This document shows positions 9,001 through 12,000 of a stretch of DNA of 64,000 nt, piece after piece. Numbering within the stretch: position 1 is the stretch's first letter; every line of letters begins with the position of its first letter. Origin of the DNA: Perna viridis. Taxonomy: Eukaryota. The DNA is taken from positions 39,552,885 through 39,616,884 of the forward strand of contig CM074513.1 in the NCBI GenBank assembly GCA_037379345.1, read 5' to 3'. Made by a program: the position numbers.

Positions 9001-12000
9001 ACTATTGTTCGTGGGGTACCAATTTTCGTGGTATTCGTGGGTAGATCAAACCACGAAATTTAGCTCCCAACGAAAATGAGATTTCCTTTGATGTGTATAC
9101 TGGTAATCACGAATTCAAGAATCCACGAACTTTTGTTTCTTCCTAATCCACGAAAGTTGTCATCCACGAATTAAAGTACTTTCACAATATTTCTTTGAAA
9201 AGTGTGTTTCTAGAAAAGCAAGAAGAGGACGCTTACCCTACCAGTGCACTTGGTCCATGCTCATTTGCTTTTGTTACTTTGTATGTATGATTTTACTTAC
9301 TTATGTTCTTTGTCTGTTTTCCATGTCTGATCTTTGTCCCTGGATTACATACTTTTGATTACTGCTATAACCTTGGTTCCCTTGATTATTCTTTCAACAA
9401 GGAGAAACTACACGCCAGGAATACATAAGAACCATTGCTAACTAGTTTGTTGCCAGAACAGACCTGTAAACTGATTGCTGGTCATACATAGGGCTTTTAT
9501 GATGATTTTAAGATGACTAATTAGTGTTGTAAATGCGTATTAACCATTTTAGCATCAAATGACTTATTCTGCTATAAACCCTATTTCAACCTCCCCGATG
9601 TAAGCAGGGGTAACAAATAATGCTGGGGAACGGAAGGAGTACAAGTAAAATAATGATATATAAAAAGTATAACTGCATAGATAATATTGAATTCATCTGT
9701 AATTGCCTCTAATATAATAATTTACTTTTGCAAATGAAATACTAATTGGCAAAAAGGCAATGCGTCGCATCAGAGTTCTTAGATCATAAGACAATGATAA
9801 AGTCGAATAGTTTATATGTAAATGAATATAAATACATTTATTACCATAATATCTTCCCTTGAAAGTTCGCTACAAACAACTTGAAACACAGTTAACACCA
9901 AACACGTCGTGAGTTTTAACACAGAACATGCAACCCATAATACTTCATAACAGACGAACATTAAAACCATTACAAATCATTACAGAGGAATATGTGACAC
10001 AAAGCAATCCAGATTTAGGAAAATATAACCTATGTGAATCGTAACGGGTAGTATTCAACATGAAGAAATTAAACGAAGAGCGAATCTTGACAGGGAATAT
10101 TTAACCTTTAAAAAACAGAAAGAAGGAAAAATGCAACCAAAAGTGAATTTGAATACGAAAAGGAACAGGCTAGCTATATCTATTTAAATTAGTGAGGACA
10201 ATCATATTTTACCACAACACTTAAATAAGCCTTTATCAAGCGAAAATTGAAGATACAAGAACTTCTCAGTGAATTGTAACAAGACAATACAATCTGCATA
10301 GAGTAAAACTTACGTATGAATTCATTCCGTCATTGCTAATGTAAATGGAAAATGTTTGACGTAAAATAAACGCAAACAAGATTATTATGTTTAATAAAGT
10401 AAATCATTTTACATAAACAAAATATTATAGTTATAATAATAATATTTCAGATCCATCAAATACTAATAGGATAATTAATTGGAAAGCGTGAATAACCAAA
10501 ATATCATCACGAGTGCCGAAAAACGCATAGATTTAACGAGTGTGTGTAACTTGTTCCGCGCACAAGTTGAATCCTCAAGCGTTCTTGGCACGAGTGATAC
10601 TATTTTGGTTATTCACGATAACCAATTGATTATCCTATTTATTATATAGATTTTCTTCAAAATTTATTGAAATTTTCAATATGAATTTTACATTCTGTGA
10701 TTGGCGATTGATATTAAAGTTGTGACGTTATGGCGGGAGAAAGTGCGAGAGTGAAATTATCGAATTTATTTCACAGTGTGAATTAACAAAATTCATTCCA
10801 CTGGGAACATTCGATAAAACACTATATAATACTGGTTGATAAACAGAATTCCGACCGATAGTTCTACGCTATATGAGGAGACAATGACTTACTAATGTAA
10901 GTAGGCAATAGCAAAAGAATTGACTCAGTAGAAATCGACGGTAGATGTGAAAAAACTTTTTCGCTATATACAAAGAAAGGTTTGATGGACGTACCAAAGA
11001 ATCATGCACACTATGGCAAATGAAGAAATCAATATCCAAATAAAAGAACATCTTTTCATAAAATTAAATTCCCACATAAGGTGATATTTAATTATCATTC
11101 AAGCTTACTCTCCCTTTTTTATTACGACAATAATTATCAGATAGTGCGCTATCATTAAGACTTGGAACGGAGCAAAGTGCGACCTTTTGTTTACAAACAA
11201 AGACAAATACCAATAAAAAAGTCGATGTTATCTTTCAAAAGCGCGGAACGCCGTTTATGAAAACCTCATCTTTATTTTTTCCCGGAAGACACGCATCTTT
11301 ACCGGAAACTTTAAAAGTGCGAAAACTCCGAGAAAATTTTCCAGTAAATTAATCTTCACTCCGAACTACAATGTAAAACGTTAATTCACATCATAAACTT
11401 CACATTTGTAGCTTTTTGTGATATTATTGAGCATGTAGTGTTAAGTCGTCAATACCTAATTGGAATCGGTCGATACGACAAACTCACTTTAAAATCATTT
11501 ATACAGAATTAACAAGCACAAAGACACTCGGGTTTTGTTTAGTACTCATGATGAAGCTCAAAGATATAGACTCAGCTAAAGACAATACCTCAGAAGGAAC
11601 CAACAAAACCTCTGAAACAACAAAGGAGGAGATCAACAGAACCTCTGAAACAACAAAGGAGGAGAGAAAGATGGTATTGATTGTTCCTTTGCCAGTAAGA
11701 GGTAAGCATCAAATATTGTAATGTATTAGTGTGGTACTTTTACCTGTAACCTTTTTTGTCTGCTGAATGTTAGTTGTTATTCTATGTTGATTCGTTGTCC
11801 GATTCATATCGACGATTCATCAATAGTTATTTCGGGTCATTTTCGCGTTCCGATATATACCTTGCATGTTAGCATTGACAGGATCGATAATACAAGTTTT
11901 CAATGATGCTGCTACGCATCCTTGAATCCACCACTGGCAGTGATTACTTTATTTACATGTATCTTTATTGCAAGATGAGTAAACAGCAATACGTACTTTT

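What the first reader, a model, noticed from the sequence alone, without database searches (positions are those of the whole stretch)
11280..11707. Candidate alternative first exon giving a DBD-less COUP-TF isoform
Seen: ATG at 11548 opens 51 codons plus 1 nt up to a strong AG|GTAAG donor. The peptide is hydrophilic and its 30-bp duplication preserves frame. ETS-like CCGGAA motifs (11282, 11302) in a CpG-richer patch lie upstream. The donor is phase 1, so splicing to exon 2 (G+CT = Ala-VQRGR) is in frame and skips the zinc fingers. Established (from memory): human NR2F2 has an upstream-promoter isoform joined to exon 2 that lacks the DBD. Inference: an analogous LBD-only isoform in an invertebrate. 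Phase compatibility alone has a 1-in-3 chance, and the exon could belong to a separate transcript or transposon.
Basis: partly seen in the sequence, partly recalled or inferred. Interest (0 to 1): 0.65.

Follow-up and report, generated by a model that had tools for sequence, protein, structure and literature searches.

The report
Mussel COUP-TF isoform without DNA-binding domain
A short upstream exon in a mussel COUP-TF nuclear-receptor gene most likely starts a second protein form that keeps the ligand-binding domain but lacks the DNA-binding domain, as a known human NR2F2 isoform does.

Summary
ATG 11548 opens 51 codons plus 1 nt, ending at GAG|GTAAGC (donor GT at 11702). CCGGAA sits at 11282 and 11302, inside the most CpG-dense patch of the window. 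One correction: the duplication is 33 bp, not 30.

The window is a Mytilus-type mussel COUP-TF/NR2F gene:
- DBD exon: 21425-21917
- Exon 2: 23768-24295
- 51-nt microexon: 25098-25148
- Exon 3: 30919-31193

All introns are phase 1, so the candidate exon joins exon 2 in frame.

The decisive evidence is P0005, a public M. galloprovincialis protein model (326 aa, LBD only). It begins with a homologue of this exon, aligned from Met to junction, joined directly to AVQRGR of exon 2. Two further unspliced mussel ORFs (P0126, P0127) keep the ATG, the frame and the Arg-Gly-Lys that spells AG|GTAAG.

The exon is single-copy in the window and matches no Pfam family. Simulation expects about 0.01 such sites by chance.

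I saw no transcript reads, so splicing in this species is inferred. The peptide's middle evolves fast.

Best reading (0.65): a real alternative first coding exon giving an LBD-only isoform that modulates full-length COUP-TF by dimerisation. It is a new member of a known kind.

The parts
11101..11400 (.). Most CpG-dense patch of the window; candidate promoter region of the alternative transcript (inferred)
   Evidence: 200-bp windows starting at 11151 and 11201 hold 12 CpG. This is the window maximum, reached by only 3 of 1269 windows.
11282..11307 (+). Two CCGGAA (ETS-core-like) motifs at 11282-11287 and 11302-11307. The first lies inside TTCCCGGAA (11279-11287).
   Evidence: A pair this close arose in 4% of 300 simulated windows. 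The ETS and STAT readings of the motifs are recalled, not tested.
11548..11701 (+). Candidate alternative first coding exon: 51 codons plus 1 nt, phase 1. The ATG at 11551 is the one conserved in relatives and has A at -3. The 5' end of the exon is unknown.
   Evidence: Homologous to the N-terminus of P0005 and to P0126 and P0127.
11601..11665 (+). 33-bp (11-codon) tandem duplication inside the exon, absent from the three relatives
   Evidence: TRF: period 33, 2.0 copies, 96% matches. Shows as a gap of 9-10 residues in alignment A2.
11702..11707 (+). Splice donor GTAAGC after GAG
   Evidence: The Arg-Gly-Lys read-through in P0125, P0126 and P0127 shows the same AG|GTAAG in the relatives.
21425..21917 (+). 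Canonical exon 1 CDS (A/B domain plus zinc-finger DBD), skipped by the alternative isoform. Donor AAG|GTAAGT, phase 1.
   Evidence: Pfam zf-C4, E 6e-31. 161 of 164 residues identical to P0006.
23768..24295 (+). Exon 2 (hinge and first part of the LBD), the shared acceptor exon. Phase 1 at both ends.
   Evidence: Pfam Hormone_recep, E 2.5e-23. 176 of 176 residues identical to P0005. Best PDB match 3cjw_A, COUP-TF2.
25098..25148 (+). 51-nt cassette-type microexon (D-RKPEPVPSQRHSMNGY-N), phase 1/1. Present in P0005 and P0006.
30919..31193 (+). Exon 3 (rest of the LBD, stop TGA at 31191-31193)
   Evidence: Pfam Hormone_recep, E 2.9e-12. 89 of 91 residues identical to P0005.

Best explanation
The stretch 11548-11701 is a real alternative first coding exon of the mussel COUP-TF (NR2F) gene. 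It would be transcribed from a promoter about 10 kb upstream of the canonical one. Its phase-1 donor (GT at 11702) splices over the DBD exon to the exon 2 acceptor at 23768.

The product has a 51-residue leader, mostly acidic and Ser/Thr-rich, ending in the conserved hydrophobic RKMVLIVPLPVR. This is fused to the hinge and the complete ligand-binding domain, giving 318 aa, or 335 aa with the microexon.

Without zinc fingers the protein cannot bind DNA itself. By analogy with human NR2F2 isoform 2, it would dimerise through the LBD with full-length COUP-TF, or with other partners and cofactors, and so modulate their activity.

Shown: the ORF, the donor, the phase compatibility, single-copy status, homologues in other mussels, and one public model with this exact join. 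Inferred: transcription, splicing and translation in this species, the promoter, and the function.
For: 1. Anatomy: ATG, 51 open codons, GAG|GTAAGC, phase 1. Exon 2 starts in phase 1.
2. Rarity: this donor and the exon 1 donor are the only 2 AGGTAAG sites on the + strand of 64 kb. They are also the only 2 of 24 G|GTRAG sites with an ATG-ORF of 51 codons or more. Simulation expects 0.01 such sites.
3. P0005, named by NCBI 'Hypothetical predicted protein [Mytilus galloprovincialis]', is 326 aa with Pfam LBD only. It is 100% identical to exon 2 and begins MKLKE...RKMVLMVPMPIR, joined directly to AVQRGR. BLASTP of the window peptide against it aligns Met to junction, 22 of 52 identical, E 2e-07.
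4. A search of 1.84 billion representative proteins gave 2 hits. P0125 is the window ORF read through the donor. P0126 is 74% identical. A profile search added P0127. All keep the start MKLK, an open frame with length differences in whole codons, the tail RKMVL[IM][VI]P[LM]P[VI]R, and Arg-Gly-Lys, which is AG|GTAAG. There are 15 invariant columns in alignment A2.
5. Not a repeat: there is no second copy in the window, only 2 hits in the whole library and no Pfam family.
6. The upstream CpG maximum and the CCGGAA pair fit a promoter.
7. The two phase-1 introns are conserved in all Nr2f genes (passages of PMC8608329). DBD-less isoforms from an upstream TSS exist in human and mouse (passages of PMC7016888 and PMC10073109). 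Predicted shark and skate isoforms (P0094, P0123) use the same junction.
8. Inference: a model that treats the strongly coding DBD exon as intron is an unlikely ab initio choice. A mussel genome annotation paper, whose pipeline I take from recall to be the source of P0005, describes combining PASA transcript alignments with other evidence (methods passage of PMC7653742).
Against: - I saw no RNA-seq, EST or long-read evidence. P0005 is a gene model whose support level I could not see, because supplements are closed.
- That P0005 comes from the annotation of PMC7653742 is recalled, not shown.
- The only spliced instance is P0005: 1 of the 2 hits, and none (0 of 90 candidates scored E <= 1).
- The middle of the peptide is poorly conserved. 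Overall identity to P0005 is 42-48%, whereas exon 2 is 100% identical and exon 1 is 98% identical to P0006.
- Against P0126, the first roughly 15 codons of the intron are also partly alignable. Exon-specific constraint is therefore not demonstrated.
- The relatives were found in ORF databases, which biases towards open frames.
- The exon is T-poor (T 0.169), which lowers the stop frequency, and one antisense frame is open too.
- The first ATG has a weak context, with C at -3.
- There is no sequence similarity to a vertebrate alternative leader (P0094, E 2.9).
- The simulation thresholds were set post hoc.
Confidence: 0.65

Rival explanations
1. The exon is transcribed but is not the start of an LBD-only protein. 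It is a leader exon of another transcript. That transcript could be a 5' UTR exon joining upstream of the exon 1 ATG, in which case its ORF would act as an upstream ORF, or it could be a separate non-coding RNA. The join to exon 2 in P0005 would then be a minor or mis-modelled event.
For: - The strong donor and promoter-like patch only argue for transcription and splicing, not for the acceptor used.
- The peptide middle evolves fast.
- An in-frame stop at 21419-21421 just before the exon 1 ATG would end any read-in. That makes an upstream-ORF reading possible.
- A ttttgtttag acceptor-like site ends at 11542, 5 nt before the ATG, so the exon need not even be first.
Against: - The only spliced instance in the databases joins the homologous exon to exon 2 in frame.
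- ATG, frame and whole-codon length changes are kept in three diverged versions. A pure UTR exon does not need these.
- Ascertainment bias weakens that last point.
Confidence: 0.15
2. It is not an exon at all. On this reading it is a chance ORF with a donor-like site in non-coding DNA, kept similar among closely related mussels by recent common ancestry. A gene predictor then picked it up in M. galloprovincialis as a start for the otherwise start-less exons 2-3.
For: - P0005 is labelled hypothetical and predicted.
- Several other LBD-only hits (P0019, P0036, P0037, P0054) are plainly intron read-through or ab initio artefacts.
- Intron sequence next to the donor is also alignable with P0126.
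- No transcript was seen.
Against: - The chance expectation is 0.01-0.06 per 23.7 kb.
- The window and P0005 versions are only 42-48% identical, with several whole-codon indels, yet both keep the ATG, an open frame, the hydrophobic tail and AG|GTAAG.
- A predictor would have to run a 10-kb-plus intron across the high-scoring DBD exon (inference).
- P0005 also carries the 51-nt microexon, which is hard to predict without evidence.
Confidence: 0.15
3. The ORF belongs to a transposon or other repeat, or derives from the A-rich satellite at 36.6-38.1 kb.
For: - The window holds retroelement-like ORFs and dispersed repeats.
- tblastn gave a weak match of the duplicated TSETTK part to the satellite translation (E 0.019).
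Against: - blastn of 10500-12500 against the window found no other copy and no hit to the satellite.
- Only 2 hits were found in 1.84 billion representatives.
- No Pfam family matched.
Confidence: 0.03

Closest known systems
Human and mouse NR2F2 isoform 2 (COUP-TFII_V2)
   Same: An alternative first exon from an upstream TSS is joined to exon 2. The product lacks the DBD, keeps the full LBD, binds the full-length isoform and modulates it (passages of PMC10073109; PMC7016888). The phase-1 junction before AVQRGR is the same (PMC8608329 passages).
   Different: No mammalian leader was compared here. A shark leader of the same type (P0094) shows no similarity. The mussel leader is 51 aa with a conserved hydrophobic tail. 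No expression or interaction data exist for the mussel.
P0005, 'Hypothetical predicted protein [Mytilus galloprovincialis]' (326 aa)
   Same: It has a homologous leader exon with the same join to exon 2, the same microexon and the same exon 3. Exon 2 is 176 of 176 identical.
   Different: Its leader is 42 aa against 51, lacks the 33-bp duplication and is only 42-48% identical. It has a single start Met. It is a model of unknown evidence.
Predicted COUP-TF2 isoforms X3/X4 of whale shark and thorny skate (P0094, P0123)
   Same: They are DBD-less, with an alternative N-terminal exon conserved between the two species and joined at the same AVQRGR junction.
   Different: Their leader is about 82 aa and unrelated in sequence. 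They are predicted models too.
NR0B receptors (DAX-1, SHP; oyster CgNR0B)
   Same: They are nuclear receptors without a DBD that act on other receptors through the LBD (passage of PMC4070562).
   Different: They are separate genes, not isoforms of a DBD-containing gene, and belong to a different subfamily.

Membership tests
NR2F / COUP-TF gene (the host gene) | C4 zinc-finger DBD and nuclear-receptor LBD with high identity to COUP-TFs | tested here: met
   Pfam zf-C4 (E 6e-31) and Hormone_recep. Exon 2 is 87-97% identical to named COUP-TF/NR2F proteins of other animals. Best PDB match is 3cjw_A, COUP-TF2, E 9e-91.
NR2F / COUP-TF gene (the host gene) | [quoted passage not shown] | tested here: met
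   Exon 1 ends with one extra base at 21917. Exon 2 runs 23768-24295 with phase 1 at both ends. The rule comes from passages of PMC8608329.
DBD-less NR2F isoform of the NR2F2-Iso2/V2 type | Alternative first exon lying upstream of the canonical first exon | tested here: met
   The candidate exon ends 9.7 kb upstream of the exon 1 ATG. Whether it is a first or an internal exon is open.
DBD-less NR2F isoform of the NR2F2-Iso2/V2 type | In-frame join to exon 2 that skips the DBD exon | tested here: inconclusive
   Phase compatibility is met, and the homologous join is present in the public model P0005. No transcript of this species was seen.
DBD-less NR2F isoform of the NR2F2-Iso2/V2 type | Own transcription start or promoter | not testable with these tools
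   Only indirect signs: a CpG maximum and a CCGGAA pair 150-450 bp upstream.
DBD-less NR2F isoform of the NR2F2-Iso2/V2 type | Protein made, and binds full-length COUP-TF through the LBD | not testable with these tools
   Exons 2-3 are intact, so the LBD is complete. Binding was not tested, and no complex job was run because a pass would rest on likeness to solved LBD dimers.
DBD-less NR2F isoform of the NR2F2-Iso2/V2 type | Leader exon homologous to the vertebrate leader exon | tested here: not met
   No similarity to the shark leader P0094 (E 2.9). Mammalian leaders were not compared. This bears on common descent of the exon, not on the working principle.
Transposon or repeat ORF | Multiple copies or a mobile-element domain | tested here: not met
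   Single copy in the window. 2 hits in 1.84 billion representatives. No Pfam family.

The most novel reading that the evidence does not exclude
LBD-only COUP-TF isoforms driven from an upstream promoter may be an old, widespread bilaterian device rather than a vertebrate peculiarity. The universally conserved phase-1 intron after the DBD would make it possible, letting any phase-1 leader exon produce one. In mussels the leader would be a functional module, with its conserved hydrophobic tail RKMVLIVPLPVR next to the hinge.
Probability: 0.12. Interest if true: 0.6.

Novelty: new member of a known kind. Interest (0 to 1): 0.42.

Why it matters
COUP-TF is among the most conserved nuclear receptors and a neural and developmental regulator across animals. 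In humans, the DBD-less NR2F2 isoform changes what the full-length receptor does, for example in stem cells and in melanoma metastasis.

A mussel counterpart would show that the same trick exists in a lophotrochozoan: an upstream promoter, a leader exon and the phase-1 junction. That would be either convergent or ancient.

It would also mean that expression studies of mussel COUP-TF with LBD probes measure two different proteins. In addition, it would explain why the public M. galloprovincialis model of this gene lacks a DBD.

None of my five literature searches aimed at this listed a paper describing such an isoform in a mollusc.

Tried and rejected
- The window peptide alone against longer proteins gave 0 of 90 candidates at E <= 1. 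It shares only about one 5-residue word with P0005, which was found later through exon 2 and through the profile.
The other members, names and accessions of these clusters stayed unseen.
- Pfam on 26 ORFs found only the three receptor exons. There was nothing for the candidate ORF or the retroelement-like ORFs.
- Rfam gave 0 matches in the window.
- Repeat origin was rejected.
- Homology to a vertebrate leader exon was rejected for the shark P0094.
- A first count of close CCGGAA pairs was inflated by the overlapping palindrome TTCCGGAA. It was redone for non-overlapping pairs (after a time-out).
- The scallop RXR isoform paper (PMC3774650, passages) concerns T-box insertions, not DBD loss, so it is not relevant.
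- dN/dS and promoter conservation could not be computed, because no DNA of other mussels was reachable.
- No structure or complex job was run. The leader has no alignment depth, and an LBD-LBD pass would only reflect solved dimers.
- The joined model (leader + exon 2 + exon 3) was never built, translated, searched or folded. Each exon was handled on its own.
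Full report
**What is in the sequence**

The window is AT-rich animal DNA (GC 0.33). It carries a COUP-TF/NR2F gene on the + strand, laid out as follows.

| Part | Coordinates | Notes |
|---|---|---|
| Exon 1 CDS | 21425-21917 | 164 codons plus 1 nt; A/B domain and C4 zinc fingers; donor AAG\|GTAAGT |
| Exon 2 | 23768-24295 | starts after ttttcag; phase 1 at both ends |
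| Microexon | 25098-25148 | 51 nt; phase 1/1 |
| Exon 3 | 30919-31193 | stop TGA at 31191-31193 |

Pfam finds zf-C4 in exon 1 and Hormone_recep in exons 2 and 3. The best solved relative of exon 2 is the COUP-TF2 LBD, 3cjw_A.

Exon 2 is 100% identical to two database proteins. One of them is named Mytilus galloprovincialis. Exon 1 is 161 of 164 identical to the 448-aa P0006. The window is therefore from a Mytilus-type mussel. An N run (23128-23256) lies in intron 1 and was left as it is.

**The observation**

- ATG at 11548, with a second ATG at 11551.
- 51 open codons plus one base.
- GAG|GTAAGC, with GT at 11702.
- A hydrophilic peptide (GRAVY -1.05).
- CCGGAA at 11282 and 11302.
- A CpG-rich patch upstream.

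One correction: the internal duplication is 33 bp (11 codons), not 30. The frame is kept either way.

The join G + CT = Ala, followed by VQRGR, is correct.

The site is unusual.
- The + strand of the whole window has only two AGGTAAG sites, this donor and the exon 1 donor.
- Of 24 G|GTRAG sites on both strands, only these two close an ATG-ORF of 51 codons or more.
- In 400 second-order Markov simulations of the 23.7 kb upstream of exon 2, the expected number of such AG|GTAAG sites in phase 1 was 0.01. With the looser G|GTRAG it was 0.06. These thresholds were chosen after the fact, so the figures are rough.
- The CpG patch is the densest in the window: 12 CpG per 200 bp at 11151-11400, and only 3 of 1269 windows reach 12.
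- A non-overlapping CCGGAA pair 6-25 bp apart arises somewhere in 64 kb in 4% of 300 simulations.

**Evidence from elsewhere**

Searches were done exon by exon.

*The leader peptide alone.* Against longer proteins it found nothing: 0 of 90 candidates scored E <= 1.

*Exon 2.* This search listed 120 of 1215 hits. At the top was P0005, 326 aa, with Pfam LBD only, named 'Hypothetical predicted protein [Mytilus galloprovincialis]'.

Its sequence begins MKLKETVTV...RKMVLMVPMPIR and continues directly with AVQRGR of exon 2, then the microexon and exon 3.

BLASTP of the window peptide against P0005 aligns from the start Met to the junction: 22 of 52 identical, E 2e-07 for the single comparison.

*The full HMMER scan.* A scan of 1.84 billion representatives found just two hits.
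- P0125 is the window ORF read through the donor.
- P0126 is a 57-aa ORF, 74% identical, also read through the donor.

*The profile of the three leaders.* This found P0005 again, plus P0127, an unspliced 143-aa ORF close to the P0005 type. That was 2 hits among 739 candidates.

*What all versions keep.*
- MKLK at the start.
- An open frame with length differences in whole codons.
- The tail RKMVL[IM][VI]P[LM]P[VI]R.
- Arg-Gly-Lys across the boundary, which is what AG|GTAAG encodes.

After that point the read-through sequences diverge.

tblastn of these proteins on the window hits only 11548-11757, and blastn shows no second copy. The exon is therefore single-copy here and is not a transposon ORF.

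**Weighing it**

I believe, from recall of the naming style, that the model comes from the genome annotation of PMC7653742. Its methods passage says that PASA transcript alignments, bivalve protein alignments and four ab initio predictors were merged with EvidenceModeler. It also says that 78.7% of genes had transcript support.

A model that runs an intron across the strongly coding DBD exon is an unlikely ab initio choice. It also contains a 51-nt microexon. I therefore infer transcript evidence, but I could not see it, because the support levels are in closed supplements.

Points against:
- I saw no reads.
- The middle of the leader is poorly conserved: 42-48% overall identity, while exon 2 is identical.
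- Against P0126, the first roughly 15 intron codons also align. I therefore cannot show that the exon is more constrained than its flank.
- The relatives came from ORF databases, which favours open frames.
- The exon is purine-rich and T-poor (A 0.435, T 0.169), which by itself lowers the stop density. One antisense frame is open as well.
- The conserved start is probably 11551, which has A at -3. ATG 11548 has C at -3.
- An acceptor-like ttttgtttag ends at 11542, so the exon may be internal, with a short non-coding exon further upstream. This is untested.

**Mechanism**

I commit to the following. An upstream promoter in or near 11.1-11.5 kb drives a transcript whose leader exon splices 12,066 nt downstream to exon 2.

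This gives a 318-aa protein, or 335 aa with the microexon. It has no zinc fingers but a complete LBD. The lengths are arithmetic on the exons. The joined sequence was not built, searched or folded.

Such a protein cannot bind DNA. It would act by LBD dimerisation with full-length COUP-TF, or by competing for partners and cofactors.

This is what is reported for human NR2F2 isoform 2:
- It comes from an upstream alternative TSS.
- It lacks the DBD.
- It co-immunoprecipitates with isoform 1.
- It depends on two LBD leucines.
- It changes target gene output in either direction (passages of PMC10073109; review passages of PMC7016888, which cite Yamazaki 2013 and Rosa and Brivanlou 2011; I did not read those two).

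The two phase-1 introns are conserved in all Nr2f genes (passages of PMC8608329; that paper never uses the word isoform). Any phase-1 leader exon can therefore create such a form. Predicted shark and skate isoforms (P0094, P0123) use the same junction with an unrelated leader.

**Comparison and novelty**

It works like NR2F2-Iso2/V2. Membership in that type is met for position and phase. It is open for splicing, promoter and protein. It is not met for leader homology in the one comparison run, against a shark leader, which argues for independent origin of the leader or for very fast change.

Five literature searches aimed at this listed no paper describing a DBD-less COUP-TF in a mollusc. The passages I read in the marine-invertebrate review (PMC7827873) and the oyster receptor paper (PMC4070562) do not mention one. 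Papers outside the held library were not searched.

The protein is already in a public database as an unnamed hypothetical. I rate the finding a new member of a known kind, of moderate interest.

**Left unchecked**
- DNA of other mussels, and hence dN/dS and promoter conservation.
- Any transcript data.
- Supplements of the cited papers.

Noticed in passing
window 25098-25148 (+): A 51-nt phase-1/1 microexon inserts 17 residues (RKPEPVPSQRHSMNGYN, replacing one Asp) into the LBD between exons 2 and 3. It is present in P0005 and P0006 (448 aa). Skipping it keeps the frame (431 aa), so it looks like a cassette exon. Its place in the fold (a loop between helices, from recall) was not checked.
   Followed up: partly
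window 11279-11287 (+): The first CCGGAA is part of TTCCCGGAA, a TTCNNNGAA palindrome of the STAT/GAS type (motif recalled, not tested).
   Followed up: no
window 11371-11376 and 11433-11438 (+): Two minimal ATG-stop pairs (ATGTAA, ATGTAG) lie between the CpG patch and the leader ATG. They would be minimal upstream ORFs if transcription starts upstream of them.
   Followed up: no
window 11528-11542 (+): An acceptor-like ttttgtttag ends 5 nt before the leader ATG, and there is a CA|GTAAAT donor-like site at 11344. The leader exon might be preceded by a short non-coding exon and a 199-nt intron.
   Followed up: no
window 36655-38077: An A-rich satellite with period 38 (and a higher-order period of 114), about 10 + 16 copies at 70-78% matches. 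It causes the AT-skew peak of 0.47. Its long open frames in several phases are repeat artefacts.
   Followed up: partly
window 3-655 (-) and 39294-40370 (+): Two near-identical retroelement-like ORF sets share the stretch VGIPMGTNCAPLLADLFLHSYEA. Pfam gave no family at E <= 0.01.
   Followed up: partly
window 9107-9358 (+), 24305-24600 (+), 39027-39362 (-), 40438-40698 (+): A dispersed short repeat family is visible as similar ORF translations (ICFCYFVCMIL-type). One copy sits in intron 2 of the COUP-TF gene.
   Followed up: no
window 21918-21958 (+): Exon 1 read through its donor stays open for 14 more codons to a stop at 21958. This gives a complete 178-aa single-exon ORF that gene predictors could call as a separate DBD-only gene. 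That may explain split models of this locus.
   Followed up: no
window 23128-23256: A run of 129 N in intron 1, left untouched.
   Followed up: no
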